The notes: generated by a model from the sequence alone, not told the origin. A DNA stretch of 64,000 bases from an uncultured Gammaproteobacteria bacterium (GCA_964416505.1 CAYQEJ010000002.1:90172-154171), one strand, 5' to 3'. Shown: positions 2,833 to 26,341, counted from the stretch's first letter. Made by a program: numbers and translations.

Positions 2833-2838
2833 CTAAAT

Positions 2839-3298: not shown

Positions 3299-3520
3299 AT
3301 GAAAATATCCATAATTGCTCATCCGAATTCAAAGAATGAAAAAGTTGAAGAAGACCTTCTGGGCACACTCCATGTTTACGTAAATGAAGCTCCCTTAGAT
3401 GGTCGTGCAAATGCCGCAATCATAAATAAACTTTCCAATTTTTTTAAAATCCCTAGATCCAAGATAATTCTTTTAAAAGGAGAAAAATCCAAAAATAAAA
3501 TTTTTGAAATATTGAAATAA
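3299..3520 (+). CDS. DUF167/YggU-like small protein
   Basis: 73 aa. The pattern HVYVNEAPLDGRANAAIINKLSNFFKIPRSKIILLKGEKSKNK resembles the YggU family (..A.P..GKAN..L...LA..L....S.I.I..G..SR.K). Confidence 0.45.
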   Translation: MKISIIAHPNSKNEKVEEDLLGTLHVYVNEAPLDGRANAAIINKLSNFFKIPRSKIILLKGEKSKNKIFEILK

Positions 3521-3522
3521 TT

Positions 3523-4053
3523 CTATTTTCCGAAAGTGGCGGTGACTTCTGGTGGCTGAGGAATTCCAAAATGCGCAAGCGTTCCCCTACTTAACCCTTC
3601 ATGATGAGCTTCATGCGCTCTCATATCCTGAAGAACTGAAAAACCAGATAAACCTGGCTGAGAGTAAGGGATATCTACTCTTCTTCCCCAATTTGCAGGA
3701 TTCCTAAAAACTCTTTCAAGTCCCGCTGTTCCAGTGTCATATAAAGCTAAGAGTTCTTCTCGAGAAAGTGTGGAAAGATCTGGCAATTGTTCTCTTTCTT
3801 CAGTCTCAAAAGCTCTTAATCTCACATCAGCATGTTTTACTTGATGCTCCAAATATGTTCTTTGAGCAGCCACATCTACTCCAACTACTTCTCCAAACTG
3901 AGCCTCACTTGTCGCGGCATAAGCTGTTCTATTTGCAGTTCTTAATCCTAAAAGCATGTCCACCGATCTATTTATTTCAAGAGCTAATGCCTCTGGGATA
4001 ACCAATGGTTCTCGGGGCGAAGTTGATTCAGTTCTTTCTGCTGCCATAAGCAA
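3523..4053 (-). CDS. Hypothetical protein, possibly DinB/YfiT-like helical-bundle metal-binding protein
   Basis: 176 aa. The His-rich C-terminal motif MRAHEAHHEG is weakly reminiscent of the DinB_2 superfamily. Consensus promoter TTGACT-16-TATAAT upstream. Confidence 0.35.
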   Translation of the reverse strand: MLMAAERTESTSPREPLVIPEALALEINRSVDMLLGLRTANRTAYAATSEAQFGEVVGVDVAAQRTYLEHQVKHADVRLRAFETEEREQLPDLSTLSREELLALYDTGTAGLERVFRNPANWGRRVDIPYSQPGLSGFSVLQDMRAHEAHHEGLSRGTLAHFGIPQPPEVTATFGK

Positions 4054-4085
4054 ATTATACCTTCTTTTTCCTATCAGTCAAGAAA

Positions 4086-4412
4086 CTATGCTAAGAATCT
4101 CTGAGCATAATCTAAAAATTGACTATTTTCAAATCCTTCAAAATGCGGAGATTTTTTAAGATTCACCAAAGTTGCTCTAAGCTCTGCTGGTGCATGATCA
4201 CCGCTTATTGCATTTTGAATCATTTTACAAACTGCGCTACCTGATCTTTCAAAATGTGCAGCTAAAAGTGCCAATGCCTTCTTATCATTATTATTGACTG
4301 CTTCCTGATATTCTTTTGGATACATTGCTGCAATTGCACTTTCTCTTGAAGCATGCGTCAGCAAACCATCAGCTGTTGTTGCGAATATTATCTCCATAAA
4401 CCTTCTTTGCAC
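4086..4412 (-). CDS. Hypothetical protein (108 aa)
   Basis: ORF with no promoter of its own. It is probably co-transcribed with 4511..5977. Confidence 0.45.
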   Translation of the reverse strand: MQRRFMEIIFATTADGLLTHASRESAIAAMYPKEYQEAVNNNDKKALALLAAHFERSGSAVCKMIQNAISGDHAPAELRATLVNLKKSPHFEGFENSQFLDYAQRFLA

Positions 4413-4510
4413 ATCTGTTAATCTATCAACTTTTTTATAAGCTACCTCTTTATTATGATGACCATCTGTTTCAGGTTTTGGCGCTTTAGTATTTCTTTCA
4501 GGTAATCCAG

Positions 4511-5977
4511 CTACTCCTCTTTTCTGGCAAGAAGAGCAGGAAGTGTTGTTTGCCTAGACATAATTAAACCCACTTCAGCGGGACTAAGATCAGATGGATA
4601 ACCAAACCGCATAAGACCAGCAGCTAATTCTTGAGCATGCTTTTTTTGCTGAAGATTTAAACTTCCCGCACCTCTTTGATCTAAAGCAGCCTTCGCTCTT
4701 ATCCTTTCATAAATAAAAGGAGTCAAAAATCTGGAAACATATTCATCAGCAGCCTTATCTCTCTCATCAGAAGACAAATCAGAGACTTTTGAACCCAACA
4801 AGCTTAAAGCAATATCCCTAAGACTGACATGGATTGGCTCCCGTTGATCATTCATTTCCAAAACTGCTTGTATTATTTTTCTATTAGCTTCTGCTTCTCT
4901 GCGCATCTCCGCTTCAGGATCAGGTACATCTACTCTACTCGGAGCAGGCGAAGCAATGTGAAAGTCTTTTCCTTGAACTGGTTTTAATCCAAACATTCCA
5001 TTTCTTGGATTCTGAACTGATTCAGCTCGCGTTCTACTCAGATCAACTATAATAATTGGGTCTTGAGAAGATAAGCCTCCCGCTTCTTGCTCTTCCCGTG
5101 GATTTCTTAGTATGCTTCTTAAGAAAGTTCTATTGGTGCCTTTTCTAATTCGAATTCTGTCTAAAACTTCTGGGGAAATATTCTCGGGATAACCCTGTGA
5201 AGCTAAATATTCAGTAAAACGCCCCACCTGCTTTAATCTATCTTCAGTTAGACTAGAAGGATCTACTCTGGAAATTTCCAAGTCTCTAATTAAATCTTTT
5301 GTAAAATCACCAATTACCCTAAGCGCATTTCCAAATTGCTGAAATGACTCTGGGGTACCCTTAGGCGGCAACTCACCAGAAAGGATAGCACTTACTGCAT
5401 AAGCGAATTTCCTATACATCAGTCCTCTTCTGTCTCGATCTAAACCAAAAACAGCTTCAATAATTTGTTTTTCCCTAGAAGAAATTTCTAGACTTGCTGT
5501 TCCTTCGAAACTAGCGACTCCTGGAGATGCTACAGCCAAATCCTCATCGTCAGAGAATCCATCCGGCAAGACAACTGGATCATCAAAAAAAGTATCGGGA
5601 CTATCTGGTAATGCAAAAGGGTCTGGCTCATCATCCGGCGTCAAAGCGGTAGGGAGCGCATCTGCAGCCTGTGTAAAAACTAAATCTCCTTCCGATTCTC
5701 CGCCTTTATCTTTAGGCTCAAGTTTAATAGGGTCAAATAAATCTTCTACTGAAATTGGATCTAAGCCCAAACCCATCCTCGCAAATGCGTCCTGAATTAG
5801 ACTTAATCCAGTATAAACATTTCCGCTTTCGCTTAATATTATCTGGTGTCTTCTGGTTGCATCAACTACCGCTTGAGAATCACCTACTGCAAGAGCTTCG
5901 TCAATTCTCCCGCGCGCAGTATCAGCATGCTCTGACAACATACCCTGACTTACTTCTTTAAACCTGCCAAGTGCCAT
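4511..5977 (-). CDS. Large acidic hypothetical protein (488 aa)
   Basis: Long ORF with a D/E/P-rich middle segment. Consensus promoter at 5986-6013. Confidence 0.5.
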   Translation of the reverse strand: MALGRFKEVSQGMLSEHADTARGRIDEALAVGDSQAVVDATRRHQIILSESGNVYTGLSLIQDAFARMGLGLDPISVEDLFDPIKLEPKDKGGESEGDLVFTQAADALPTALTPDDEPDPFALPDSPDTFFDDPVVLPDGFSDDEDLAVASPGVASFEGTASLEISSREKQIIEAVFGLDRDRRGLMYRKFAYAVSAILSGELPPKGTPESFQQFGNALRVIGDFTKDLIRDLEISRVDPSSLTEDRLKQVGRFTEYLASQGYPENISPEVLDRIRIRKGTNRTFLRSILRNPREEQEAGGLSSQDPIIIVDLSRTRAESVQNPRNGMFGLKPVQGKDFHIASPAPSRVDVPDPEAEMRREAEANRKIIQAVLEMNDQREPIHVSLRDIALSLLGSKVSDLSSDERDKAADEYVSRFLTPFIYERIRAKAALDQRGAGSLNLQQKKHAQELAAGLMRFGYPSDLSPAEVGLIMSRQTTLPALLARKEE

Positions 5978-5985
5978 AGCTTGGG

Positions 5986-6013
5986 ATTATATACTTTTTC
6001 ATTGAGGAGTCAA
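5986..6013 (-). promoter_or_regulatory. Sigma70 promoter TTGACTCC-N-TATATAAT
   Basis: Reverse complement reads atattgactcctcaatgaaaaagTATATAATccc, upstream of the ATG at 5977. Confidence 0.45.
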
Positions 6014-11832: not shown

Positions 11833-13341
11833 ATGAAATTGGCATTTCAAATATTTCTAAATAAAAATATTTTTCCTATTATTTTATTATTCTTTTTTTT
11901 ATTTAATTCCTATTTACAAATAACCTCTAGCTCAATCACATTTGACGAACCAGCACATATAAAATCAGGTCTTGAATGGCTGACTACTGGTTTTTCGAAT
12001 TCAGATCCTTTCACTCCACCTTTTTCAAAAATTCCCTTTGGAATTTATCAGCTGGTTGGATTAAATTTATTTAATGATCCTTTCCTTATTATTCCTAGAT
12101 TCACAAATACAATTTTAACCGCAGTATTTTTTATTTATTTTTATTTTTTTATAAAAAAACAGTTCTCATTTAAAGTTGCAATTATTTCTCTTTTTTTATT
12201 AATAGTTGAGCCAAATGTAATCGGCTACACTCATTTGGCAACGACTGAAACAATGACTATGATTACTTTCTTTTTAGCATTTTCTCAAATTATAATTTTT
12301 ATTCAAAATAAAAAAAATAATCTATTACCTGTCATAATTTCAATAATTTTTTTATATATTACCAAGAGTGTTTTTTTGCCAGCGTTTTTACCTATCATAA
12401 TTTTAGCGAGCCCTAAATTAAAAAAAATTAAATTTAAAAAATTTTTAACTCAATCTTCTTTGGCCTTTTTAGTATTTATTATTCTTATATTACTGATATC
12501 AGGATTTCATACTTATCCTGCTTTCGCAGATAAATTTTCCATTCCCGGAGGAGGAGTGATTAACTCTACTTTTTCGGCAGTGAGTTACGTAGTAAATCCT
12601 AAATTTATTCCTACACGTCAGATAATTTTTATGGGAAATATAAGCCATGAAAGTTCTTATTTATATATTCCACTTTCATTTTTACTAAAAACTTCTCCTC
12701 ATCTGCTCATCCTGCTAACGACAGGAATATTTTTAGTATTATTCAGAAAAATAAAAGATAAAAAAATAATTTTTGGAATAATAACAATTTTTTCCTGTAT
12801 ATCTATAGTTACATTAGGAAACTATAATACTGGCGTAAGACATTTACTCCCTGCTTTCCCGATTATTTCTTTTATTTCAGGTTTTGTGTTATTAGAGTTT
12901 GTTTTGAAAAAATTAAATCTTAAAAAGATTATCATCTCTTCTCTAATTTTTATTTCAATAATAATTTGTTTAAGAAATAAGGACTCACTTGCTTATTTTA
13001 ATCCGGTAATTGGGTCTAAAGAAGGATCCAAAATATTAACAGAAAGTAATTTTGACTGGGGACAAAGCTTGCCATATCTTCAAAAAGAAAATCAGAAAAT
13101 TGATTATTTAGTATCAAGCACGAATGAAGATTCACAAAAATATGGCATATATGCGCCTCCCCTTCCCTCAGATTGGAAATTAAATATCCAAAAATTAAAT
13201 AATAAAAATATATTCATTTCAAATACTGCTTATTACAAATCAGGGCTTTATGAAGAAAATATATTCTCAATAGATAAAGCAGAATACTCCGCAAACAATA
13301 CTTATTTTATTTTTAAAATCCGGGGAAATAATCAGTTTTAA
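11833..13341 (+). CDS. Membrane glycosyltransferase, GT39/ArnT-PMT-like
   Basis: 502 aa with many TM helices. The N-terminal luminal loop carrying a DE motif (FDEPAH) and the overall architecture are typical of dolichyl/undecaprenyl-phosphate-sugar dependent GT-C enzymes. Confidence 0.55.
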   Translation: MKLAFQIFLNKNIFPIILLFFFLFNSYLQITSSSITFDEPAHIKSGLEWLTTGFSNSDPFTPPFSKIPFGIYQLVGLNLFNDPFLIIPRFTNTILTAVFFIYFYFFIKKQFSFKVAIISLFLLIVEPNVIGYTHLATTETMTMITFFLAFSQIIIFIQNKKNNLLPVIISIIFLYITKSVFLPAFLPIIILASPKLKKIKFKKFLTQSSLAFLVFIILILLISGFHTYPAFADKFSIPGGGVINSTFSAVSYVVNPKFIPTRQIIFMGNISHESSYLYIPLSFLLKTSPHLLILLTTGIFLVLFRKIKDKKIIFGIITIFSCISIVTLGNYNTGVRHLLPAFPIISFISGFVLLEFVLKKLNLKKIIISSLIFISIIICLRNKDSLAYFNPVIGSKEGSKILTESNFDWGQSLPYLQKENQKIDYLVSSTNEDSQKYGIYAPPLPSDWKLNIQKLNNKNIFISNTAYYKSGLYEENIFSIDKAEYSANNTYFIFKIRGNNQF

Positions 13342-14818
13342 TTTTATGAGATTTTATTCCTAACTTTTTTAGTAAATTCTTATATCCTTCGACCATCTCA
13401 TTAGTTCCTGATATGTAGTAGATTCTTTCATTATAATCAGGCACCTCTTTTTTAATAATTTCAGGAGTAAGTCTTCCAACATATCCATTCCAGCTCTTTT
13501 CTTCTGCACCCTTTGTTAAAAGATAAATTGTTCTTATGCCAATATTTTTTGCTAATTCAAAAATATCTTTGTAGACAAAATTTTCTAAGTCTCGATTTGA
13601 ATAAAAAATTACTATATCCCTACTTTGATTTTTATCAATTAAATATTTTACTATGCTTCTAAATGGAGTGACTCCAATTCCACCAGCAATAAAAACTAAT
13701 TTACCATCTGTCTTAGGAAGAATAAAATCCCCAGCTAGATTTCCTGCGTATATTTTTTGTCCAGGGTTCATATTTAATAATGCTTTTTTAAAACTACTGC
13801 TTTTCTCATCCATTCTTATTCCAAGCTTTATTTGATCTTCAGTTGGAGATGAAGAAATAGTGAAAAATCGCCTCATTCCTCTGCTATCAGGCCTCTTATG
13901 TCCTAAGGTCCACTCAAAGTATTGACCAGATTTAAAATTTAAATTTTTTGGTTTTTTAAAAATAAATTCATAGATATTTGGTGAAAGTTGTACTTTTTTG
14001 ATAAATTCTAAAACTAATCTTTTTCTAAAACTTACAAAGTAAGAAAAGATATTTCCAATAACTAACGCTGTTTCAGAAGTAGAATAAAAAGGCCCTATAC
14101 TAATTTGCGACCCCGATAAAATTCCTACTATGGCACCATAAATAATTTGCAATTTTCTTGTAGGAGGAGTTGTAAGTGGTTCAGTTAGCATAATTGTTCC
14201 AAGAAAAATCAAAGGCCACGAAGGAATTGCTTGAGAAAGAATCTGAACTATATCTGCTTTATTTAAATATGCAAAAAATGAAATAGACATCAATGCGCAA
14301 ATAAAGAATGATAAAAACATACTAATTTTCCTTATTTTTCTAACTACTAAAAATCCTATTAACAAAACGAATGGAAAAAGAAATTTATTTCCTATCCACC
14401 ATTCTGTCTGAGTTGCTCCAAGAAGTCCCATTATTACTAATGAAATTGCAACGGGATTAAATATATGTTTTTTATGAAGAACAAATACGTATTTTGAACC
14501 CATTGCAATAACTCCGAATAAAATATAGTTAAGTGGGCTTTCTCCAAATTTATATGGAGTAAGAATTAAAAATAAAATGAGCGATGTAATAGCAAAAGAT
14601 TCAATATTGAATTGTACTTTAAATATCTTTGCAAAAATAAAATTTGAAACAAAACAAATTAAGGTAATTAATCCTAAGGAAATTATTAAATCAAACGTGG
14701 AAAATGGAACTATTCCAATCCCAGAAGAAAAAATTGCTAAAGACGAAAGAAAAATTAAACCATATAAAACTACCTTATACATTGTAAAGTAGTTTAAAAA
14801 TCTATCTATAGCTTTCAT
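13313..14818 (-). CDS. Membrane-anchored oxidoreductase: N-terminal polytopic domain fused to a ferredoxin-NADP reductase-like FAD/NAD(P)-binding domain
   Basis: About 280 aa of TM helices. The C-terminus carries RRFFTISSSP (the RxYS FAD-binding motif) and GGIGVTPF (the NAD(P) GGxGxxP motif). Confidence 0.65.
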   Translation of the reverse strand: MKAIDRFLNYFTMYKVVLYGLIFLSSLAIFSSGIGIVPFSTFDLIISLGLITLICFVSNFIFAKIFKVQFNIESFAITSLILFLILTPYKFGESPLNYILFGVIAMGSKYVFVLHKKHIFNPVAISLVIMGLLGATQTEWWIGNKFLFPFVLLIGFLVVRKIRKISMFLSFFICALMSISFFAYLNKADIVQILSQAIPSWPLIFLGTIMLTEPLTTPPTRKLQIIYGAIVGILSGSQISIGPFYSTSETALVIGNIFSYFVSFRKRLVLEFIKKVQLSPNIYEFIFKKPKNLNFKSGQYFEWTLGHKRPDSRGMRRFFTISSSPTEDQIKLGIRMDEKSSSFKKALLNMNPGQKIYAGNLAGDFILPKTDGKLVFIAGGIGVTPFRSIVKYLIDKNQSRDIVIFYSNRDLENFVYKDIFELAKNIGIRTIYLLTKGAEEKSWNGYVGRLTPEIIKKEVPDYNERIYYISGTNEMVEGYKNLLKKLGIKSHKIKTDYFPGF

Positions 14819-14830
14819 ATAAATATTGTA

Positions 14831-15709
14831 CTAAATTTTCTTTTCAATGAATAATTCTGCAGGAAAATTATTGGATTTCTCAAAAGTATAATCAGGAAAA
14901 AGCACTAAACTTTCGAAATCAAAATACTTCTCTAACTTTTCTTTGGGAACAAAAAATAAACATGTAGCTAACCCATCTGCGATAATAGCTTTTTTTGCAA
15001 CTACCCAGGTAGCAAGAATATTCTTGGGAGACTCCAAGGTCTTAGGATTAATTATATGATGAAATTTATCCCAGGCTCTCCTATTCCCAGAAGAAGCTGC
15101 GATGCTTTCATTTTGAATTTTAGCAATTCCTATTACCTGTTCAAAATTACCTGGATGCTCCAAGCCTATTGAAAGAAATTCTTTTGAATTTCTATAATAC
15201 ATATCCCCTCCACCATCGACGCAAAAATCTTTTATTCCACTATCCTCTAGGATTTTGGAGATTATATCTATCAGATATCCTTTCCCAAGCCCTCCGAAAT
15301 CTAAAAGATATGGAATCTTAGTGCTTAAAACAGGGTGTTTATATATAAAAACTTCTTTTTCAGATGGAATTTTTTCAATTTTTCCTGGCGTTAATGTATA
15401 ACCGGAATCATATCCCGCCTATTCTAAAACATTTCCTACTAAAAGTGTGAACTCTCCATTAGTGATCAAGGAAAGTTTTTCATATAGAGAAAATAAATCT
15501 TTCGCATCTTGTGGAAAATTATATTCCCCTTTTTTCTTAGAAATTTCCCAAACGAGCGAATCATTACGAAATCTGGAATAAGTTTTATCGAAAACTTCTA
15601 TTCTCTTTTTAATATCTGATAAAACTTTCTCTTGAGGATATGGCGAATCTACACAATCGATAACCCAACTGGTTCCGATTGCTTCAAAGCTTAGCTTAAA
15701 AGAATACAT
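14831..15709 (-). pseudogene. apbE: FAD:protein FMN transferase ApbE, interrupted by a single in-frame TAG at 15419-15421
   Basis: Both track ORFs (15419..15709 and 14831..15202) plus the 216 nt between them translate in one frame to a contiguous ApbE (FDKTYSRF...DFGGLGKGYLIDII...VDGGGDM...ADGLATCLFV). The only interruption is one TAG codon. Confidence 0.55.
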
Positions 15710-15711
15710 TT

Positions 15712-16212
15712 TTAAGATTTTGCTTGAGACTTAATGTCATCAAGCGCAGCATTAAATCCAATTGGTGTTAAACTGGATCCAGAAACTTTCGAAAGCTTAA
15801 CTTCATCAATATTTTTACCAATTACCATTTCCTTATAGTTTGCTATGAAATCTGCTTGTTTTTCTTTTGAAACTGGATTCTTAGCTTGAGGAGTAACTGT
15901 TACATCCTTTACTACTCCACTAGATAAAGTAACGCTTACTTTAATTGATTCGGTTCCCGAATGGTATGCATATGATCCTACAGCTTCGTAAGCTCCATCT
16001 TTATAACCCGCGTTCGATGATTTATCTGGTGTATCAGGCTGTATTTGATTAGTTCCATTATTCTGGGCTGCAGGAGCTTGAACGCTTGACTGATTTTTAT
16101 TTTTCATATAGAAAAATACTCCACCTGCGACCAAAGCTATGATTACAATTACAGCTACAACGACCAATATTAAATTTTTATTTCCTCCTGATGTAGATAC
16201 TTGTTCTTCCAT
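15712..16212 (-). CDS. Membrane-anchored FMN-binding domain protein (putative flavinylation substrate)
   Basis: N-terminal TM anchor, then a domain ending in VSGSSLTPIGFNAAL. This resembles the FMN_bind (NqrC/RnfG-like) flavinylation motif [S/T]G[A/S][S/T]. It lies directly upstream of apbE. Confidence 0.5.
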   Translation of the reverse strand: MEEQVSTSGGNKNLILVVVAVIVIIALVAGGVFFYMKNKNQSSVQAPAAQNNGTNQIQPDTPDKSSNAGYKDGAYEAVGSYAYHSGTESIKVSVTLSSGVVKDVTVTPQAKNPVSKEKQADFIANYKEMVIGKNIDEVKLSKVSGSSLTPIGFNAALDDIKSQAKS

Positions 16213-16371
16213 AATTCACCTCCTTTTTTACTTAATATGAGAATCGATTAGATTACCATTATAACAAAATTTTCTTACATAAAATCAATTATTTTAATCT
16301 AATTTCGTCAGGATATTGTCTTTTTAGAGTCAAGTCTAAATTGCATAAATTTTATAGAATTACTGGATTAG

Positions 16372-17940
16372 ATGACTACAGAATTACCATCAAAAGCTTC
16401 GCCAGATCAGCATATACCAGGTACCAGAACAAGAACAACACAGCCTACTTTAGGTGATGCTCTTCGTTCTGATCCGGAGCTGATTGAGCATGTCACTAGA
16501 CCTGATAGGTCTGGACTTTCCGTGGCAGAAGCCGCCTTCTTGGCAGAGCATTCGGGATTCGTACCCCAAAGACACCCCACAGAATTAGGTCCACTGCTAG
16601 GACTTAGCGAAGGATTTGTCCATCAAGGAAGAGAGTTTACGTTGATGGAAGTGCATGCGGGAGCTCGACCTTTATACCATCATGAAATGCCGAAAGAACA
16701 GGCAGACATTTCTCAAGCTATTGCAGGTATGGGCGTCTATAATACCGTAGTTGATTCTAATGGATCAAGAGGAAATGTCGATATTCATTCTGAAGTTGCT
16801 ACAGCTGTTCATGACAGAGCAAGAGAAACATTAGCTAATGGTCAATTTACTGTTATCCTCCCTTTTGCAAACGAAGCAGGAACTATCGGAAAAGCTATGC
16901 GCCATTCCGCATCAAGAGTAGGAAAAGACAATATTATTGCTATAGATGCAGAAACTGATCCCCTAGCATCATCAGAAGCACAGGCAACTAGCGAAGAACT
17001 TGGCGACGCTGATGTTGTAAAGCAATCTGATGTGTTAAGTGGAATAGACTGGGATTTACTTCGCAGAGAAGGCATTGTTCCTCCCGATTTTCAACCCAAA
17101 GGCGCAAAAGGACTAACAATGTATGCGGGTGTAATTGCAGCACAAGCTCTAGGTCAACTTGATGGAAAAACCGTTATTTTCCATGATACTGATATCACAA
17201 ACCCTGGAAGTGAAGATGCCCAAAGAAGTGAATCCGGATCTTATGGAGCACTTGAACATTTAGCAATTCCTTATACCTATCCTTTAGATTCAGGAACTAT
17301 ACATAGCACTATGATTGCTAGAACTGGTACAGGCAGAAATAATGAACCATGGCTTTATCAAGCAAACATGATCGCTGCTATGTCTCATTTACCTAAAATG
17401 CAAAGATTAGCTGTTCTACTAGGAAGTCTTGAATGGCCATTAAGCGGTGAGAGAACAATTGGCGGAAATATAACATCACACGACGGATCAATTAAGCCCC
17501 TAATTCACGAATTAGCTTTCCCTGTAGGAATGGGTGTTGAAACCTACATGAATATTGCTCTTGCTGGAATCGATGCTAAAACAGGAAGACGAAGTGTATT
17601 TCAAGTAGCGAATCCTAATCCAAAATTAGAAAATAGAGAAAGCCCAAGAGATAGAGAATATGGATTGATTTTTGGTTGCGCTAAAAATTTAAACTTCCTG
17701 GCTAGACATGTTGAAGAAACAGGAAAACATGTTATCGACTGGGATATAGACGATATCGCAAGTTTTAATCAAAAACATGGTGGAAGAAGAGACATGTTGT
17801 CCGTCCCAAGTCCGATTGACCATCAACCAAATAGAGTCGTATCATCAGGAGTGGATGTTCTCCTACCAAGTATCTCTATGCTTGAATCCTTGGGTGCTGT
17901 AAACTGGGATAAGGTTAAAGGAGCAATTAGGCCTAACTAA
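16372..17940 (+). CDS. GT-A type glycosyltransferase-like protein (glucosyl/mannosyl-3-phosphoglycerate synthase-like), compositionally distinct
   Basis: VILPFANEAGTIGKAMRH...NIIAIDAETD resembles the GpgS/MpgS pattern (V(I/L)PALNEE.TIG.V....D..(I/L)V(I/L)DSGSTD). The extra roughly 150-aa N-terminus has no match. Its stop overlaps the next start (TAATG). Confidence 0.4.
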   Translation: MTTELPSKASPDQHIPGTRTRTTQPTLGDALRSDPELIEHVTRPDRSGLSVAEAAFLAEHSGFVPQRHPTELGPLLGLSEGFVHQGREFTLMEVHAGARPLYHHEMPKEQADISQAIAGMGVYNTVVDSNGSRGNVDIHSEVATAVHDRARETLANGQFTVILPFANEAGTIGKAMRHSASRVGKDNIIAIDAETDPLASSEAQATSEELGDADVVKQSDVLSGIDWDLLRREGIVPPDFQPKGAKGLTMYAGVIAAQALGQLDGKTVIFHDTDITNPGSEDAQRSESGSYGALEHLAIPYTYPLDSGTIHSTMIARTGTGRNNEPWLYQANMIAAMSHLPKMQRLAVLLGSLEWPLSGERTIGGNITSHDGSIKPLIHELAFPVGMGVETYMNIALAGIDAKTGRRSVFQVANPNPKLENRESPRDREYGLIFGCAKNLNFLARHVEETGKHVIDWDIDDIASFNQKHGGRRDMLSVPSPIDHQPNRVVSSGVDVLLPSISMLESLGAVNWDKVKGAIRPN

Positions 17941-19097
17941 TGAATAAACAAGATCTTTCTTATCTTAATACAGTTAAATCCGCCTTTGCAGTTTACAAAT
18001 CAGGAGTTAAAAGAAAAGCAAATGGAAAATTAACATATGACTACTTAGTACCATCGGGAGTTTATGAAGAACAATGGGACTGGGATGCATTCTTCATGGG
18101 AATTGCGTTGTCTCATGAAATTCCTTCTGAAGCCATTTACTTAAAAAATTGGGTTTTAAATTTTTTAAATAATAGTGATAAAAATGGTTTTACACCCGGA
18201 TGTATTACACCGGAAGGTAGAGACAAAAGACTGCATCAAATGAAACCTTTCTTAGCACAAGGAGCATATGTAGCTTCAGTGAAAATGAATGATTTTTCTT
18301 GGCTCGAAAAAAATGTAAATCAGCTAGAGAAAATTGTACTTTTTAGAGAGAAAAATTTATGGAATTCAAAGTATGACCTAGGAGTTTGGTTTAACTCCAT
18401 GGAATCCGGTGCAGATGATAATCTCGCAGCATTAAATTTTGAAGATAAATCAATAATTGGGACTGACTTAAATTCATTTATTTATAAAGAATACGAATCA
18501 TTAAGTAAAATTTATAAAAATTTAAAGAAACCTAATTCCGCAAAAATATTTGAAGATCGTGCGAATGAAATAAAAAATAATATAAATAAATTCCTTTGGT
18601 CTGATGAATTAAACTCATATCTTAACTTAGATATATCCTCAAATAATCACGTCAAACGAATCTCCTATAACTCAATCCATCCTCTTTGGGCTGGAATTGC
18701 ATCGCAAAAAAGAGCAGAAAATTTTGTAAATAAATATCTTTTAAATAAAAATAAATTATGGTCAAATTATGGCATTAGAACGCTTTCAAAAGATGATCCT
18801 GGATATAATAATGAAAATAAAATAAAACCACACTCCAACTGGCAAGGACCAATATGGGTTATCTCAAATTACTTTTATACTCAAGCTCTTATTAGATACG
18901 GTTTTCAAAAAAAATCAGTTGAAGTAGTAAAAAAAATTGCCGAAATTTGCATAGACGACATTAAAAAATCTGGAGGGATGCATGAGAATTATGATGCAGA
19001 AAATGGAAAACCTTTGGCTGCTCCAAATTTTATATCTTGGAATCTACTACTCCCTGAAATGCTAGAAAGCTCATTATCAAATAAATTAATTTATTAA
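17940..19097 (+). CDS. GH63-like (alpha/alpha)6 glycoside hydrolase (mannosyl/glucosylglycerate hydrolase-like)
   Basis: 385 aa. The pattern WDWDAFFMGIALSH...GFTPG and the C-terminal GGMHENYDAENGKP match the GH63 / MGH / trehalase-like catalytic domain. Confidence 0.6.
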   Translation: MNKQDLSYLNTVKSAFAVYKSGVKRKANGKLTYDYLVPSGVYEEQWDWDAFFMGIALSHEIPSEAIYLKNWVLNFLNNSDKNGFTPGCITPEGRDKRLHQMKPFLAQGAYVASVKMNDFSWLEKNVNQLEKIVLFREKNLWNSKYDLGVWFNSMESGADDNLAALNFEDKSIIGTDLNSFIYKEYESLSKIYKNLKKPNSAKIFEDRANEIKNNINKFLWSDELNSYLNLDISSNNHVKRISYNSIHPLWAGIASQKRAENFVNKYLLNKNKLWSNYGIRTLSKDDPGYNNENKIKPHSNWQGPIWVISNYFYTQALIRYGFQKKSVEVVKKIAEICIDDIKKSGGMHENYDAENGKPLAAPNFISWNLLLPEMLESSLSNKLIY

Positions 19098-19103
19098 TCT
19101 TCT

Positions 19104-20171
19104 ATGAATTTAATTCAAATAAAAAAAATCCGAGATAACTTTATTGAAGAATTAAATTTATCAGAAAGAAAAAATAAAACAAGCCTTCCTTTCATTATCA
19201 ATCCTCTTCCCTCCAAAAAAATTGTTAAAAATGAAGAAGTATTCCAAGCGATTGTGGTTGGAGGAAGCATGGGCAAAATAGCAAAACTAAAAAATAACAC
19301 CAATGGATTAGAAATCTTATCAACTGAAGAAAAGGAACAACCAAGATTTGATTCTTATGAAATTTTTATGGAGTATTTAGAAAATCAGCTTCATGTAGAT
19401 ACAAAAATTCTTGCTGTTGATTTTGCTTTTCCGCTCTCCCCTATTTTAGAAGATGGAATTTTAGATGGAATTTTGCTTCGAGGAACAAAAGAACATTTAT
19501 TTCATGGACTTGTTGGAAAAAAAATTGGTGAAGAGATTAGTAATTATTTTCTAAAAAAAAGAGGACAAAAAATATTAGTCTCTTGCGCAAATGACACAGT
19601 CTGCCTACTCCTTTCAGGACTAACTAAATATTCTAAGGATAATCTGGCATGTGGAATTTTAGGAACCGGAATGAATGCCGCTTTTTTCTTAGATGAAAAT
19701 AAATGTGTCAACTTAGAATCAGCTAGTTTTGATAAATTTCCAAAATCTCCAGAAGGAGAAATTATTGATGCTTCTTCAACTCAACCGGGAACAGCACTTT
19801 TCGAAAAAGAAATTACAGGCGCCTATCTTTACAAACATTTTAATTTAATAATTAAAGAAAAAGGAATTGATTTCAAACCCATAAACTCTACCCTAGAACT
19901 AAAAAATTTATCGCACGAAAACAGTGGCGAAGTTTCCAAAATTGCAAACGAATTATTAGATAAATCTGCTGCGTATATCTCTGCTCAAATTGCTGCTATC
20001 AGTGAATTTAAAAAGAGAGATATGGTTTTCGTGATGGATGGAAGCTTTTTTTGGGAAAGTACTTATAAAAAAAGAGTTGACGAAATGATTCCTAGATTAA
20101 CAAATTATAAAATAGAATTGGTTGAAATAAAAAATAATACCGTCTTAGGACCTGCGCAACTCGTAATATAA
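19104..20171 (+). CDS. Hexokinase-family sugar kinase
   Basis: CANDTVCLL (hexokinase ...NDTVGTL...), ILGTGMNAAFF (GTGTNAAY) and VMDGSFF (DGS) are hexokinase signatures. Confidence 0.6.
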   Translation: MNLIQIKKIRDNFIEELNLSERKNKTSLPFIINPLPSKKIVKNEEVFQAIVVGGSMGKIAKLKNNTNGLEILSTEEKEQPRFDSYEIFMEYLENQLHVDTKILAVDFAFPLSPILEDGILDGILLRGTKEHLFHGLVGKKIGEEISNYFLKKRGQKILVSCANDTVCLLLSGLTKYSKDNLACGILGTGMNAAFFLDENKCVNLESASFDKFPKSPEGEIIDASSTQPGTALFEKEITGAYLYKHFNLIIKEKGIDFKPINSTLELKNLSHENSGEVSKIANELLDKSAAYISAQIAAISEFKKRDMVFVMDGSFFWESTYKKRVDEMIPRLTNYKIELVEIKNNTVLGPAQLVI

Positions 20172-21380
20172 TTATTCGTACCTGATTGCCTCGATTGGAG
20201 AAAGATCTGCAGCCTTTTTTGCAGGAAAAACTCCAAAGAAAATTCCTATAACTGATGAGATCCCTAAAGCTGCTAAAACTGATACCAAATTAATGCCAGC
20301 AGGAAAAAAAGGCTGAATAAGAATAACAATTAGTACTGCAATCAAAAGCCCTAATACGCCTCCAAAAACTGAAAGAATTAATGCCTGAGCTAAAAACTGA
20401 AGAAGAATATCTTGCTTTGTTGCCCCAATAGCACGCCTTATACCAACTTCCTTTGTGCGTTCTGTAACTGTTGCATACATAATATTCATTATTCCAATAC
20501 CCCCTACTATTAATGAGATGGATCCAATTGCTATAAGAATATAATTTAAGATTGAGAATATTTGAGTTACTATATTTAATATTTCTGTTTGTTCGACAAC
20601 TTGAAATTCATCCTCTTTATATTTTTTCAATAATTGCTTCTTTAATTCATTTTTTACAGTCGGAATAGATTCCTTATTCACCGCGGTAACGTAAATAGCG
20701 GAATATTTTTTATTTGGATTAAGAGAATTAATTTTAGAGGAAACATAAGTGAAACTGTCAAAACTTGGACCTCCCAATCCTCCACCACCTTTTGAATTCA
20801 ACACTCCTTTTATTTTAAAAGATTGATCAGAAATTCTTATTTTTTTCCCAACTGCAGATTCAGGGGAACCATACAAATCCTCTGCAAGCTTGGGACCGAT
20901 CATTACCTCTTTAGCACGCCTATCAACATCTGCTTTAGTAAGTAATCTTCCTGCTTGAGCTTCAAGATTTAATACATTAGAAATTTCCTGATTAGTCATA
21001 ACTATACTCGTTGATTTCTTCTCCCCATTTGCCTGGGCAATCGAACTTTTCTGTAAAATTGGAACCACATATAACACTCCATCCAACTTTTTCAGTTTAA
21101 AAACATCTGAATCCGTAAATCTTTCTCCAAGCGCACCATTTCCTCCACCAAATCCCCCATCTTCACTTAAAACCTGTCCAGGAAAAACATAAATAATATT
21201 CGAGCCTAAATTATCAAATTGTTGTTGAATATAATTCCTAAGCCCAATTCCAAAAGCAATAAGTAAAACTACAGACAAAACACCAATAAGAATTCCAAGA
21301 GAAGTTAAAAAAGTTCTCACTCTGTTTCTCTTGAAATCATCAAGAGCTGATTTGACTAAAAACATTATCTTACCCATCAT
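20172..21380 (-). CDS. ABC transporter permease, MacB/FtsX family
   Basis: N-terminal TM, a large periplasmic domain and a C-terminal FtsX-type four-TM domain. Confidence 0.8.
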   Translation of the reverse strand: MMGKIMFLVKSALDDFKRNRVRTFLTSLGILIGVLSVVLLIAFGIGLRNYIQQQFDNLGSNIIYVFPGQVLSEDGGFGGGNGALGERFTDSDVFKLKKLDGVLYVVPILQKSSIAQANGEKKSTSIVMTNQEISNVLNLEAQAGRLLTKADVDRRAKEVMIGPKLAEDLYGSPESAVGKKIRISDQSFKIKGVLNSKGGGGLGGPSFDSFTYVSSKINSLNPNKKYSAIYVTAVNKESIPTVKNELKKQLLKKYKEDEFQVVEQTEILNIVTQIFSILNYILIAIGSISLIVGGIGIMNIMYATVTERTKEVGIRRAIGATKQDILLQFLAQALILSVFGGVLGLLIAVLIVILIQPFFPAGINLVSVLAALGISSVIGIFFGVFPAKKAADLSPIEAIRYE

Positions 21381-22048
21381 ACATTTACAATCTCCCCGTC
21401 TTTCATACTGATCTGTCTTCTTGCTTTTGCAGCAATTTCTTTGTCATGCGTAACAATAAGAATAGTAACTTTTAAATCTTTATTAAGTTCTTCTAAAAGT
21501 TTTAAGATTTCAGCGCCTGATTTTGAATCAAGATTTCCGGTAGGTTCGTCTGCAAGAATTAACTTTGGATTCATAATAAGCGCTCTTGCAATTGCAACTC
21601 TTTGCTGTTGTCCGCCAGAAATTTTATTAGGTCTATAATCACGTCTTTCTATTATTCCAAATCTCTGTAAAAGCTCATCTGCTCTTTTATATGGATCAAA
21701 ATCAAGCTTAGTCTTCGAATATCGTGCTGGTAAAACTATATTTTCAATTACTGACAATTTATTTATTAAATTAAATTGTTGAAAAATAAATCCAACATAT
21801 CTGTTCCTAAATTCTGATAACGCATCATCTCCCAATTTTGAAACATCTTTCTCGTCCAATAAAACTTTTCCTGTAGTTGGCTTGTCCAATAGACCAAGAA
21901 TGTGCATCATTGTAGATTTTCCGCATCCAGAAGGCCCGACAATAGATGTAAACTCTCCATCTTTTATATTTAAATTAATTTTCTTGAGGACTTTTGCGGT
22001 TTCTTCGCCAATCTCGTAATCTTTCTCTACATCAATCAGCTTAATCAT
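21377..22048 (-). CDS. ABC transporter ATP-binding protein (MacB/LolD-type)
   Basis: Walker A GPSGCGKST, signature LSGGQQQRVAIARAL and Walker B LILADEPT. Confidence 0.9.
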   Translation of the reverse strand: MIKLIDVEKDYEIGEETAKVLKKINLNIKDGEFTSIVGPSGCGKSTMMHILGLLDKPTTGKVLLDEKDVSKLGDDALSEFRNRYVGFIFQQFNLINKLSVIENIVLPARYSKTKLDFDPYKRADELLQRFGIIERRDYRPNKISGGQQQRVAIARALIMNPKLILADEPTGNLDSKSGAEILKLLEELNKDLKVTILIVTHDKEIAAKARRQISMKDGEIVNV

Positions 22049-24145: not shown

Positions 24146-25240
24146 CTATCTCAAATCAAGAGTTTCAGCTTTATAGATTAAATTTTTAGGTTTTATTACT
24201 ACTTGCTTCTCTCCTTTTTCTACATATCCTGCATCAATTGCCTGGAATTTATTTTTTTTGATAATACCCAAACATTTATCTACATCTTTTGGTGAAATAA
24301 TCAAACAATAATCCTGTCCCATATTATATGTTTCATACATTTCATAGTCTGATAATCCTGCATGTTTTTGAATAAATTCAAAAACTGGTTGAGGTTTAAA
24401 AATTTTTTCAACTACATACGTAAACTCAGGTCTTCCTCTCATAATTTTCCTGACACCATGTCCCGTGATATTCGAGATATAATGAATATCTACGTTATTT
24501 TTTTGCAAATCCTGAATTACTTTTGCATAAATATTTGATGGCGAAAGTAAATCTTCCCCATATGTCTTATTACCAATCTTTGTCTGATAACCCTTTGGTA
24601 GTTTTTTGGCAATTGCACGAGTTAAAGAAATTCCATTTGCATTTACTCCGTTACTCTTTATTAAAACAATTCTATCTCCTGCATTTATTTTTTTGTCAGT
24701 AACTAAATGTTTTTTATTTTTTATAATTCCAACTGCAGAACCACCCAGATCTACAGATTTACTTTCAATAATTCCTTTTAACGCTGGTGTTTCTCCCCCT
24801 CCCCAAACAACACCGGCTAAATTACATGCTTTTTCCCAACCTTTTATAAAATCCTTCATTCTTTTTCCATCCTGGAGAAATCCGTCTCCAGAATCCGCCC
24901 AGTAAGCATTTAAAACAAGAGGGCTAGCGCCCACGCTAACCAAATCATTAATAATAGTAGCAACTGTATCTTGTGCAATTTCTGCATAAAAAGATTTTTC
25001 TTGTTTTTCCCAAACGGCATCAGCGACTAAACTTTTAGTTCCCAATCCTTCCATTACGAATGCCATAAGGTACTCATTTTGCTCCCAAAGAAATGCTGAT
25101 TCACCACGCGAACCAGAAACCTCCTTAAAAGCTTTTAATAAATTTTTTGATGTATTTTTTGCACTATCTTGTGCAAGTTTTTTTATAGGATCTAATTTTG
25201 AGTAATCTACTCCAGATTTTTTATAAGTAACTTTTTTCAT
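24146..25240 (-). CDS. purM: Phosphoribosylformylglycinamidine cyclo-ligase (AIR synthetase)
   Basis: YKKSGVDYSK N-terminus and a PurM-like N/C domain pattern. Last gene of the pur operon. Confidence 0.8.
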   Translation of the reverse strand: MKKVTYKKSGVDYSKLDPIKKLAQDSAKNTSKNLLKAFKEVSGSRGESAFLWEQNEYLMAFVMEGLGTKSLVADAVWEKQEKSFYAEIAQDTVATIINDLVSVGASPLVLNAYWADSGDGFLQDGKRMKDFIKGWEKACNLAGVVWGGGETPALKGIIESKSVDLGGSAVGIIKNKKHLVTDKKINAGDRIVLIKSNGVNANGISLTRAIAKKLPKGYQTKIGNKTYGEDLLSPSNIYAKVIQDLQKNNVDIHYISNITGHGVRKIMRGRPEFTYVVEKIFKPQPVFEFIQKHAGLSDYEMYETYNMGQDYCLIISPKDVDKCLGIIKKNKFQAIDAGYVEKGEKQVVIKPKNLIYKAETLDLR

Positions 25241-25545
25241 TCTGCTTTTATTTCATGCACTACTGCTAATTCGCTTTGGACATTTCTAAGACTAATTACT
25301 CTTCCATCACCCGCTCCAAAAACATCTCCTCTTACAAATTCTTCCATTCCTCCTCCATCTGCAGCCCAAATTAATCTTCTACCGTCGACAGTATGCATAA
25401 TACTACCATACCTGACCAAACAGCTTCCTTCTAAAATTTGGAAATATCTTTTTGGACCTTCTTCTCCCAGCATGGAACTTTTCCCTGGTTCTATTACTAA
25501 ATCTATTTCTCCCCAGGATTCTCTACCTTCATTTGGTCTTGTCAT
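25237..25545 (-). CDS. Small cupin-like protein inserted between purQ and purM
   Basis: Internal Met (MTRPNEGRESWGEIDLVIEPGKSS...) gives about 100 aa with a beta-rich, cupin-like pattern. G+C visibly higher than the flanking genes. The longer track ORF would overlap purQ. Confidence 0.35.
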   Translation of the reverse strand: MTRPNEGRESWGEIDLVIEPGKSSMLGEEGPKRYFQILEGSCLVRYGSIMHTVDGRRLIWAADGGGMEEFVRGDVFGAGDGRVISLRNVQSELAVVHEIKAE

Positions 25546-25558
25546 GTTGGGAATTATA

Positions 25559-26341
25559 TTAAGAAGTAACAAATTTAACAATATTCTTAAATAAAGGTAA
25601 CCCTTGTGGTGAATCGATCGTACCACGACGCCAATTTGGATGCTGCTCGCGCCTCACAAAACATTCGGGATGTGGCATAAGACCCAAAACTCTTCCGGTT
25701 TCGTCCGATATGCCTACGATTGCATTCGTTGAACCGTTCGGATTATCAGGGTATTTTTGAGTAGGATTTCCCTTTTCATCAACGTACCGAAATGCAACTA
25801 AATTTTCTTTTTCAATTTTTTCTAAATTCTCCAAATTTGCTACAAACTTTCCTTCCCCATGCGCCACTGGGTACCAAAGAATTTGATTTTCCATACCTTT
25901 CAAGAACATAGACTTAGAATTTTCTTCAACCTTCACTTTTACCCATCTGCATTCGAAATGCCCTGAATCATTATTAACTAAGGTTGCATCCATCTCTCCA
26001 ATATTTCCAAAAGGCACCAGCCCAGTTCTGACTAAAACTTGAAAACCATTACATACCCCAATAACTGCGGTGTTCGGTCTTTTTATAAATTTGCGAATCT
26101 CATCTCCAAGATATGACACTATCTCAATTGCCAGCACTTTTCCGGAAACTATATCATCTCCATATGCAAATCCTCCAGGAATTCCCAAAATTTGATAATC
26201 AGATAATTTTTCTTTTTTATTTTTTAAGTCATTTATATGAACTAATTTTGCATCTGCTCCCGCTAGATTAAATGCGAATACCATATCCTCATCTCTATTT
26301 ATTCCATCAGCTTTTATGATTATTGCTTTAGGTTTTTTCAT
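25559..26341 (-). CDS. purQ: Phosphoribosylformylglycinamidine synthase, glutaminase subunit
   Basis: Class I amidotransferase triad: GVCNGFQVL (Cys) and HPE at the C-terminus. Start taken at MKKPKAIIIK. Confidence 0.85.
   Translation of the reverse strand: MKKPKAIIIKADGINRDEDMVFAFNLAGADAKLVHINDLKNKKEKLSDYQILGIPGGFAYGDDIVSGKVLAIEIVSYLGDEIRKFIKRPNTAVIGVCNGFQVLVRTGLVPFGNIGEMDATLVNNDSGHFECRWVKVKVEENSKSMFLKGMENQILWYPVAHGEGKFVANLENLEKIEKENLVAFRYVDEKGNPTQKYPDNPNGSTNAIVGISDETGRVLGLMPHPECFVRREQHPNWRRGTIDSPQGLPLFKNIVKFVTS

What the first reader, a model, noticed from the sequence alone, without database searches (positions are those of the whole stretch)
14831..15709. apbE interrupted by a single in-frame amber codon
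The two track ORFs 15419..15709 and 14831..15202 and the 216 nt between them read in one frame as a complete ApbE (FMN transferase). The only interruption is one TAG at 15419-15421 (...GNVLE*AGYDSGYTLTPG...DFGGLGKGYLIDII...). No alternative start follows the TAG until Met 15202, which would delete the conserved GLGKGY/VDGGGDM core. TAG and TGA terminate other genes here, so global recoding is unlikely. The options are a recent nonsense mutation (pseudogene), an assembly error, or programmed read-through/suppression of a flavinylation enzyme.
Basis: seen in the sequence. Interest (0 to 1): 0.55.

Follow-up and report, generated by a model that had tools for sequence, protein, structure and literature searches.

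The report
Recent nonsense mutation in apbE
A flavin-attaching enzyme gene (apbE) in an uncultured Levybacteria-like bacterium is cut short by one stop codon that arose from a single C-to-T change, because an almost identical strain from another sample still has the intact gene; it is an ordinary, very young loss-of-function mutation rather than programmed recoding.

Summary
On the minus strand, 15709..14831 reads as one 292-codon ApbE (FAD:protein FMN transferase). Its only interruption is TAG at 15421..15419 (codon 97).

The cause is a strain-private C>T transition, CAG (Gln) to TAG.
- A contig from a different sequencing run (L021) is 99.92% identical over 2,584 nt. It differs at two bases, one of which is this one, and it encodes an intact 292-aa ApbE.
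- Six contigs of a sister lineage (92-94% identical) also have CAG.
- Fifteen more distant homologues have sense codons and no in-frame stop.

An independent assembly of run SRR12487045 reproduces the TAG, so it is not an assembler artefact.

TAG ends 16 of 66 genes in the window. No other gene carries an in-frame stop. No tRNA gene, Rfam match or stable RNA structure lies near the site. dN/dS across apbE is 0.09, the same on both sides of the stop, so the lesion is too recent to have left any decay.

Best reading: a very recent nonsense allele that removes the catalytic part of the enzyme. The gene sits in a known NQR/RNF-like flavinylation operon of the candidate phyla radiation.

One curiosity: the sister lineage carries an independent poly-A frameshift in the same gene. 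Interest is low.

The parts
14831..15709 (-). apbE (FAD:protein FMN transferase), 292 codons plus the natural TAG stop, interrupted at codon 97
   Evidence: The match to Pfam PF02424 is E=4.8e-37 over residues 12-263. It matches solved ApbE structures 3pnd and 6nxi. It is colinear with 31 homologues. The L021 orthologue is intact at 292 aa.
15419..15421 (-). In-frame TAG (amber) at codon 97, derived from CAG (Gln) by a C>T change at window 15421
   Evidence: The sequence shows it directly. L021 has C where the window has T at 15421. Contigs L001, L023, L024, L026, L027 and L028 all read CAG. Among homologues the column is E, Q, D, A or R.
15419..15709 (-). 5' ORF, the 96-aa truncated product expected if TAG terminates
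   Evidence: It appears in the ORF list. The Logan annotation of L012 calls it as a separate 96-aa gene. It lacks every invariant motif from G99 onward.
15203..15418 (-). 72 codons with no ATG, GTG or TTG start in frame. They encode DFGGLGKGY and VDGGGD and would stay untranslated after termination.
   Evidence: Invariant columns D137, G139, G142, K143, G144, Y145, G168 and D169 lie here.
14831..15202 (-). 3' ORF (123 aa) from the internal Met of GGGDM. This is a gene-caller artefact, not a plausible independent product.
   Evidence: It holds H218, which aligns with the His of SHIIDP in V. cholerae ApbE 6nxi. The ApbE review names His257 of that enzyme as the general base (PMC12052999). Equating H218 with His257 is my inference. 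The ORF lacks the N-terminal two-fifths of the fold.
14831..14833 (-). Natural terminator of apbE, also a TAG. Four codons later comes the ATG at 14818 of the next gene, in the same frame.
   Evidence: It is conserved in L001, and homologues end at the same place.
14990..14996 (-). A7 tract (GC-AAAAAAA-GC, codons 236-238). It is intact here but A8 in the sister lineage, which gives a +1 frameshift.
   Evidence: One search gives the coordinates. L001 and L030, from two different runs, both have A8. L021 and L031 have A7.
15712..16212 (-). Upstream operon gene: a 166-aa single-pass membrane protein with an FMN-binding-like domain, the presumed flavinylation substrate. Its stop lies 2 nt before the apbE ATG.
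   Evidence: The match to PF04205 FMN_bind is weak: E=0.015, 16.4 bits, below the cut-off of 22. The motif K-[VI]-S-G-S-S-L-T is invariant in 20 homologues. JGI names homologues 'uncharacterized protein with FMN-binding domain', and some carry PF04205.
15772..15783 (-). Codons 144-147 (S-G-S-S) of the FMN-binding protein, the candidate flavinylation motif corresponding to the canonical S-G-A-T
   Evidence: Motif search. The columns S144, G145, S146 and S147 are invariant. Assigning it as the modified site is an inference from the family's known motif.
15993..15993 (-). The second of the only two differences from strain L021: ACT>GCT (T74A) in the FMN-binding protein, derived in the window strain
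   Evidence: The column is variable among homologues.
13313..14818 (-). Downstream operon gene: a 501-aa fusion of an NqrB/RnfD-like membrane domain with an NqrF-like FAD/NAD-binding reductase
   Evidence: PF00175 matches at E=1e-13. PF03116 matches at E=7e-5, which is below its cut-off. NCBIfam nqrF matches at 8e-15 and rnfD at 1e-3. Many homologues carry PF03116.

Best explanation
The TAG is a real and very recent C>T nonsense substitution, CAG(Gln97) to TAG, private to the strain or population this window was assembled from.

Mechanism, shown and inferred:
- Shown: TAG is a normal terminator in this genome.
- Inferred: translation of apbE therefore ends after 96 residues. The truncated product lacks the GLGKGY and GGGD motifs, the histidine I equate with the catalytic base (H218), and the C-terminal ADGLAT segment. 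The allele is thus null or nearly null.
- Inferred: the next in-frame start lies 72 codons downstream, inside the fold, so no useful second polypeptide is made.
- Inferred: apbE is the middle gene of a tightly packed three-gene NQR/RNF-like flavinylation operon (FMN-binding protein, ApbE, NqrB/RnfD-like reductase fusion). The FMN-binding protein, and probably the NqrB-like domain, would therefore stay unflavinylated. The 588 untranslated nucleotides may also reduce expression of the downstream gene by polarity.
- Shown: the rest of the gene shows no decay. This is an incipient pseudogene or a segregating loss-of-function allele, not an old pseudogene and not a recoding site.
For: - L021 (Logan, run SRR14234033) matches window 13812-16395 at 2,582 of 2,584 positions. 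The two differences are 15421 (C in L021, T here) and 15993. Its apbE is an uninterrupted 292-aa ORF.
- Both differences are derived in the window strain, because the sister lineage L001 agrees with L021 at both.
- Six contigs of the sister lineage, from six different runs, read TTA GAA CAG GCG at codons 95-98.
- Thirteen more distant loci have no stop in the matched gene, and in all fifteen examined the residue before the GY[D/G] motif is a sense residue.
- The TAG is reproduced in an independent assembly: L012, Logan, run SRR12487045, 100% identical over 7,257 nt.
- dN/dS against L001 is 0.086 for the whole gene, 0.068 before the stop and 0.091 after it. Neighbouring genes give 0.06-0.175. 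Only 13 nonsynonymous differences lie downstream of the stop.
- Polarising the amino-acid differences with outgroups gives 6 changes on the window branch and 3 on the L001 branch downstream of the stop, all at variable columns.
- TAG terminates 16 of 66 genes, including apbE itself and purM with complete domains.
- No other same-frame ORF pair in the window looks like a split gene.
- All invariant catalytic-core columns lie after codon 97.
Against: - No reads are available. I cannot show that the T is fixed rather than a majority allele, or rule out a read-level error.
- The two assemblies that share the TAG probably derive from the same sample, so they are not independent at the level of reads.
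- Loss of function is inferred from the sequence, not measured.
- A second apbE elsewhere in the genome cannot be excluded. The window has none, and the genome is not in the searchable genome collection.
- Low-level near-cognate read-through would restore the wild-type Gln and could leave residual activity.
Confidence: 0.77

Rival explanations
1. Sequencing or consensus artefact, or a minority variant. The organism really has CAG, and the T at 15421 comes from read errors, mis-polishing, or a sub-population allele chosen by the assembler.
For: The difference from the intact strain L021 is a single base. The gene shows no other sign of decay. The window strain is seen in only one run in the collection, so confirmation from another sample is missing.
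Against: Two different assemblies, the window itself and the Logan contig L012, agree at every one of 7,257 bases including the TAG. The Logan contig runs through the site without a break. No other gene among 66 in the window is disrupted, which argues against a generally error-prone assembly.
Confidence: 0.12
2. Tolerated leaky stop. TAG mostly terminates, but near-cognate decoding by tRNA-Gln, or an unseen suppressor tRNA, yields a small amount of full-length enzyme. Because the ancestral codon is CAG, that enzyme would have the wild-type sequence. ApbE is needed only in catalytic amounts, so this could suffice and the allele would be a hypomorph rather than a null.
For: The ancestral residue is Gln. 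From general knowledge, Gln is the usual near-cognate insertion at UAG. The base after the stop is G, which follows only 1 of the 16 genuine TAG terminators in the window. The sister lineage's lesion sits in a poly-A run, a kind that can be partly rescued by transcriptional slippage (general knowledge). The gene remains under purifying selection between lineages.
Against: No measurement supports it. The window holds no tRNA gene. The 111 nt around and after the stop fold no better than shuffles, z=-0.15. The purifying-selection signal is fully explained by the lesion being very recent, given the 2-base difference from L021. A sample of 16 TAG contexts is too small to define a weak context.
Confidence: 0.08
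3. Programmed recoding: selected stop-codon read-through, TAG reassignment, or pyrrolysine-type decoding of apbE.
For: Only that the frame stays open and conserved on both sides of a single TAG.
Against: The stop is absent from a 99.92%-identical strain and from every other relative examined. TAG terminates 24% of the genes here, and apbE's own terminator is TAG. The window has no in-frame TAG in any other gene, no tRNA gene, no Rfam match and no RNA structure at the site.
Confidence: 0.02
4. Split gene. The 96-aa N-terminal piece and a separately initiated C-terminal piece assemble into an active two-chain ApbE.
For: Gene callers report two ORFs.
Against: No ATG, GTG or TTG lies in frame for 72 codons after the TAG. 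The first Met sits inside the GGGDM motif, so the invariant DFGGLGKGY segment would be missing from both chains. No relative is split there.
Confidence: 0.01

Closest known systems
ApbE / Ftp family FAD:protein FMN transferase (Pfam PF02424; solved examples 3pnd, 6nxi, 4xgw)
   Same: It has the full-length domain architecture and the conserved core motifs: DFGGLGKGY, GGGD, SSGNRR, HHI and ADGLAT. It sits next to a predicted flavinylation substrate.
   Different: It is interrupted by a nonsense codon at residue 97. It has no N-terminal signal peptide or lipobox, because the Pfam domain starts at residue 12. It therefore resembles the cytosolic ApbE type mentioned in PMC12052999 more than the classical periplasmic lipoprotein. 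It is only distantly related to the characterised enzymes (E about 1e-10 to PDB chains).
NQR/RNF-like flavinylation gene clusters of Actinobacteria and the candidate phyla radiation (Meheust et al. 2021, eLife, PMC8238504, section 'NQR/RNF-like systems')
   Same: It has the same component set: a protein with an N-terminal NqrB/RnfD-like membrane domain fused to an NqrF-like NAD-binding domain (PF00175), a protein with an FMN-binding domain, and ApbE. The lineage is also the same, Levybacteria-like candidate phyla radiation.
   Different: In this strain the ApbE component carries a premature stop. The FMN-binding protein has S-G-S-S where the canonical motif is S-G-A-T. No VIT1 iron transporter is adjacent.
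Ordinary nonsense-mutation pseudogenes and segregating loss-of-function alleles in bacterial populations
   Same: It is a single transition that creates a stop. An otherwise identical strain has the intact allele, and no compensating feature is present.
   Different: It is too young to show the further lesions or the raised dN/dS that define an established pseudogene.

Membership tests
ApbE family (PF02424) | Significant full-length match to the family profile | tested here: met
   128.4 bits against a gathering score of 25.6, residues 12-263 matched to profile positions 2-255 of 266. NCBIfam ApbE matches at E=1e-11, far below the equivalog cut-off, so it is a distant subfamily.
ApbE family (PF02424) | Catalytic general-base histidine (His257 of V. 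cholerae ApbE, PMC12052999) and the conserved FAD/Mg-binding core | tested here: met
   H218 aligns with the His of 'SHIIDP' in 6nxi; equating that His with His257 is my inference. H218, I219, D137, G142, K143, G144, Y145, G168 and D169 are invariant, and D245 and T249 nearly so, in 32 sequences including this one. All lie downstream of the stop.
ApbE family (PF02424) | Uninterrupted reading frame, i.e. a functional member | tested here: not met
   TAG at codon 97. By descent it is a member of the family but a disabled allele.
ApbE family (PF02424) | N-terminal signal peptide or lipoprotein anchor (typical, but not universal) | tested here: not met
   Only 11 residues precede the domain. Homologues start at the same point. 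Cytosolic ApbEs are known (PMC12052999).
NQR/RNF-like flavinylation cluster (Meheust 2021) | NqrB/RnfD-like membrane domain fused to a PF00175 NAD-binding domain | tested here: met
   PF00175 matches at E=1e-13. PF03116 matches at E=7e-5, 22.8 bits against a cut-off of 27.7. Many homologues carry PF03116 in precomputed hits. NCBIfam rnfD and nqrF hits also appear.
NQR/RNF-like flavinylation cluster (Meheust 2021) | Adjacent protein with an FMN-binding domain and a flavinylation motif | tested here: inconclusive
   PF04205 matches at E=0.015, below the cut-off. The motif K[VI]SGSSLT is invariant. Three homologues carry PF04205 and JGI names the family as FMN-binding. Flavinylation itself was not tested.
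Programmed stop-codon read-through or recoding site | The stop codon is conserved among orthologues | tested here: not met
   CAG in L021 (99.92% identical) and in six sister-lineage contigs. Sense codons in 15 distant loci.
Programmed stop-codon read-through or recoding site | Stimulatory RNA structure or context 3' of the stop | tested here: not met
   Minimum free energy -15.1 kcal/mol against a shuffle mean of -14.7, z=-0.15. No Rfam match.
Programmed stop-codon read-through or recoding site | Suppressor tRNA, or genome-wide in-frame use of the codon | tested here: inconclusive
   The window holds no tRNA gene at all. There is one in-frame TAG in 66 genes, and 16 genes end in TAG.
Established (decaying) pseudogene | Several disabling lesions and/or relaxed selection (dN/dS approaching 1) | tested here: not met
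   There is a single lesion. dN/dS downstream of the stop is 0.091. There is no significant excess of window-branch changes. A strain differing at 2 bases has the gene intact.

The most novel reading that the evidence does not exclude
apbE is recurrently and reversibly switched off in this Levybacteria-like species group. Of the three lineages in which the whole gene can be read, one has Q97* (the window), one has an A7-to-A8 frameshift seen in two runs (L001, L030), and one is intact (L021). Long-term dN/dS nevertheless stays near 0.09.

Both lesions are of a 'soft' kind that could be partly rescued. Near-cognate Gln read-through at the TAG would restore the wild-type residue, and transcriptional slippage could correct the poly-A frameshift. 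This could mean on/off or dosage tuning of the flavin-based electron-transfer module in a candidate phyla radiation bacterium, rather than plain decay.
Probability: 0.06. Interest if true: 0.45.

Novelty: already known. Interest (0 to 1): 0.12.

Why it matters
It matters mainly for annotation. The two short ORFs should be merged and labelled as one apbE with a premature stop, not listed as two hypothetical proteins and not treated as evidence for an alternative genetic code.

Biologically, this strain probably cannot flavinylate the adjacent FMN-binding protein and NqrB-like reductase. Metabolic reconstructions from this genome should therefore not assume a working NQR/RNF-like electron-transfer module. 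The near-identical strain L021 gives a natural intact/null pair for that module.

The independent frameshift in the sister lineage hints that the module is dispensable under some conditions. That is a modest point about accessory redox functions in candidate phyla radiation bacteria.

Tried and rejected
- **Global or partial TAG reassignment.** Rejected: 16 of 66 genes end in TAG, with neighbouring genes or complete Pfam domains right at the stop.
- **Other split genes, as a sign of a poor assembly or of leaky TAG.** Same-frame neighbouring ORFs were listed and Pfam was run on 36 gene models. The other pairs are distinct genes, for example purM followed by an alpha/beta hydrolase.
- **Suppressor tRNA or RNA element.** ARAGORN found no tRNA in the window and Rfam found nothing. 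The fold around and 3' of the stop is no better than shuffles.
- **Second apbE copy in the window.** tblastn finds only the locus itself.
- **Finding the window's own genome.** The genome-contig scan returned only relatives at 70% identity or less. The metagenome-contig scan returned only 52% or less. Neither helped with the close comparison.
- **The first protein search.** It did not return the intact 292-aa allele of L021. That allele was found only by searching with the neighbouring FMN-binding protein and fetching its contig.
- **Paper search for the run accessions.** Nothing found, so the sample origins are unknown.
- **Pyrrolysine.** Considered only from general knowledge and dropped. 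The site is a variable surface-type column (E, Q, D, A or R), the stop is not conserved, and nothing Pyl-related was seen among the genes annotated. No specific search was run.
- **Old pseudogene.** Rejected on dN/dS and the branch-polarised substitution counts.

Full report
**1. The observation**

The minus strand from 15709 to 14831 translates as one frame with a single internal stop...FTLLVGNVLE*AGYDSGYTL.... The ruler places that TAG at 15421..15419.

The mechanical ORF list shows a 96-aa ORF (15419..15709) and a 123-aa ORF (14831..15202). The second starts at the first ATG, GTG or TTG after the stop, which is the Met of the VDGGGDM motif.

Joined across the stop, the 292-residue protein matches Pfam ApbE (PF02424) in one stretch covering residues 12-263, E=4.8e-37. 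It also matches solved ApbE structures along its whole length. The finding is therefore accurate in every factual detail.

**2. The organism and its genetic code**

The best homologues are from uncultured Levybacteria and other Patescibacteria of the candidate phyla radiation.

The window has a G+C content of 26-42% and is densely coded. Of 66 gene models, 39 end in TAA, 16 in TAG and 11 in TGA.

TAG-terminated genes have complete domain sets and are followed at once by the next gene. One example is purM at 24146-25240. apbE's own terminator is TAG, conserved in the sister lineage.

Same-frame neighbouring ORFs plus Pfam on 36 gene models revealed no other interrupted gene. The window contains no tRNA gene and no Rfam family. 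The code is the standard bacterial one, and apbE is the only gene with an in-frame stop.

**3. Which residue belongs at the stop**

In an alignment of 31 homologues the column is variable and hydrophilic: mostly E, sometimes Q or D. In more distant loci it is also A or R. It lies in the segment that aligns with 'VGPLVNLWGF' of the solved enzymes.

**4. Close relatives settle the origin**

The closest protein hit, P0001, led to contig L001 (Logan, run SRR22840552). L001 is syntenic, 92.4% identical over 4.9 kb, and has CAG at the site.

Searching with the neighbouring 166-aa gene found a cluster of three near-identical proteins. One of them lies on L021 (Logan, run SRR14234033).
- L021 matches window 13812-16395 at 2,582 of 2,584 bases.
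- The two differences are 15421 (C in L021, T here) and 15993.
- L021 encodes an uninterrupted 292-aa ApbE.
- At both positions the sister lineage agrees with L021, so both changes are derived in the window strain.

Five further sister-lineage contigs, from five other runs, reach past codon 97. All read TTA GAA CAG GCG.

The TAG is therefore a private C>T transition of a Gln codon. It is separated from an intact allele by essentially no other divergence.

**5. Is it an assembly error?**

Contig L012, assembled independently by Logan from run SRR12487045, is 100% identical to window 14355-21611, including the TAG. Its annotation shows the same 96-aa and 123-aa fragments.

This excludes an assembler-specific error. 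The two assemblies probably share their reads, so a read-level or population-consensus explanation remains possible. I give it 0.12.

**6. Selection**

Nei-Gojobori estimates against L001 are as follows.

| Region | dN/dS |
|---|---|
| apbE, whole gene | 0.086 |
| apbE, before the stop | 0.068 |
| apbE, after the stop | 0.091 |
| apbE, after the sister lineage's frameshift site | 0.021 |
| Four neighbouring genes | 0.06-0.175 |

Polarising the amino-acid differences downstream of the stop with ten outgroups gives 6 changes on the window branch and 3 on the L001 branch. All fall at variable columns. There is no sign of decay, which fits a lesion only two substitutions removed from an intact allele.

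**7. Consequence (inferred)**

Every invariant core column of the family lies downstream of codon 97. These include D137, G139, G142-Y145, G168, D169, S202, S206, R211, W213 and H218, along with the nearly invariant D245 and T249. H218 aligns with the His of 'SHIIDP' in V. cholerae ApbE 6nxi. I take this to be His257, which the ApbE review describes as the general base (PMC12052999). That equation is my inference.

No canonical start lies in frame for 72 codons after the stop. The expected product is therefore an inactive 96-residue fragment.

**8. Context**

apbE is the middle gene of a compact operon on the minus strand.
- Upstream is a 166-aa single-pass membrane protein with a weak FMN_bind match (E=0.015) and an invariant K-[VI]-SGSSLT motif. 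Its stop lies 2 nt before the apbE ATG.
- Downstream, 12 nt after apbE, is a 501-aa fusion of an NqrB/RnfD-like membrane domain and an NqrF-like reductase.

This is the 'NQR/RNF-like system' described for Actinobacteria and the candidate phyla radiation by Meheust et al. 2021 (PMC8238504). In this strain the module has probably lost its flavin transferase. Polarity on the downstream gene is possible but untested.

**9. Read-through and recoding**

The stop is not conserved. The 111 nt around and after it fold no better than shuffled sequence, z=-0.15. There is no tRNA gene or RNA family nearby. Programmed recoding is effectively excluded.

Unprogrammed near-cognate read-through cannot be excluded. 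Because the ancestral codon is CAG, it would regenerate the wild-type protein. The G after the stop follows only 1 of the 16 genuine TAG terminators here. This is a speculation about residual activity and has no supporting measurement.

**10. A second lesion in the sister lineage**

L001 has A8 where the window, L021 and L031 have A7 (window 14990-14996, codon ~237). This shifts the frame and gives the 263-aa product P0001. The same A8 appears in L030 from a second run, SRR22840554.

Of the three lineages in which the whole gene can be read, two therefore carry independent disabling lesions and one is intact, while long-term selection is strongly purifying. The simplest reading is that the module is dispensable in some settings and loss-of-function alleles arise repeatedly. 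Homopolymer sequencing error is not excluded, since the platform is unknown.

A JGI contig, L031, matches from codon 126 onward but has 46 unrelated bases upstream. That is too little to interpret.

**11. Verdict**

Nonsense alleles are ordinary and the operon type is already described. Interest is low. The parallel frameshift in the sister lineage is the only slightly unusual point.

Noticed in passing
window 14990-14996 (equivalent: L001 ~1830, L030 ~84-91): The sister lineage (92% identical) has A8 instead of A7 in the apbE poly-A tract, which gives a +1 frameshift at codon ~237. It is seen in two different runs, SRR22840552 and SRR22840554. This is an independent second disruption of the same gene. 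The sequence after it is still under strong purifying selection (dN/dS 0.021).
   Followed up: partly
L031:1-46 (JGI 3300045332, Ga0490005_019639), boundary at window 15333: This relative, 93.7% identical, matches apbE only from codon 126 onward. The 46 bases before that are unrelated to apbE and to anything else fetched. This could be a chimeric contig end or a 5'-truncated apbE in a third lineage.
   Followed up: partly
window 16336-20163 (compare L022:2010-4573, L023, L024): A three-gene cassette lies between the FtsX permease gene and the FMN-binding gene. It holds a 522-aa protein with no Pfam hit and atypical composition (GC 0.42 against about 0.33, rich in Ala, Arg, Pro and His), an MGH1-like/GH63 glycosidase, and a hexokinase-like protein. 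In three sister-lineage contigs an unrelated cassette sits between the same flanks: a 627-aa APH-like protein (GC 0.41) and a HAD hydrolase. L001 has the window-type cassette. This is a variable island next to the operon.
   Followed up: partly
window 16372-17940 (+): The 522-aa protein has no Pfam or PDB sequence match. Its only hit is a sub-threshold NCBIfam match to glucosyl-3-phosphoglycerate synthase (E=0.004). Together with the MGH1-like hydrolase next to it, this hints at a glucosyl- or mannosyl-glycerate type compatible-solute module.
   Followed up: partly
window 14816-14833 (-): apbE's natural TAG stop, four codons, and the ATG of the NqrB/RnfD-like reductase gene are all in one frame. 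Three consecutive ORFs (15709-15419, 15418-14831, 14830-13313) are thus separated only by single TAG codons. The arrangement is conserved in L001. It is probably coincidence, with a chance of about 1 in 3.
   Followed up: no
window 15993 (-), FMN-binding protein codon 74: This is the only other difference from strain L021 in 2,584 nt, and it is also nonsynonymous (T74A) and derived in the window strain. Both recent substitutions therefore hit the flavinylation module. The column is variable among homologues, so the change is probably neutral.
   Followed up: yes
window 15677-15709 (-) and 15712-16212 (-): This ApbE clade has no room for a signal peptide, because the domain starts at residue 12. 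The partner FMN-binding protein has more positive charge after its single membrane helix than before it, and it carries an invariant SGSS motif where SGAT is canonical. The topology of this candidate phyla radiation module (cytosolic versus extracytosolic flavinylation) may differ from the textbook case.
   Followed up: no
window 24146-35531 (-): An apparently complete, intact de novo purine biosynthesis operon: purM-like, purQ, purL, purD, purN, purF, a NUDIX-purC fusion and purE. From general knowledge this is notable, because many candidate phyla radiation genomes lack nucleotide biosynthesis.
   Followed up: no
window 1-6000: G+C is higher here (0.39-0.42) than in the rest of the window. 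The region holds a run of minus-strand genes mostly without Pfam matches, apart from DUF3761 and DUF6855. ORFs 288-887 and 803-1369 overlap by 85 nt in different frames. It may be foreign DNA or a frameshifted gene.
   Followed up: no
(database behaviour): The intact 292-aa ApbE of L021 is 99.7% identical to the query, yet the protein homology search did not return it. It surfaced only through the neighbouring gene. Absence of an intact allele from such a search is therefore not evidence that none exists.
   Followed up: yes
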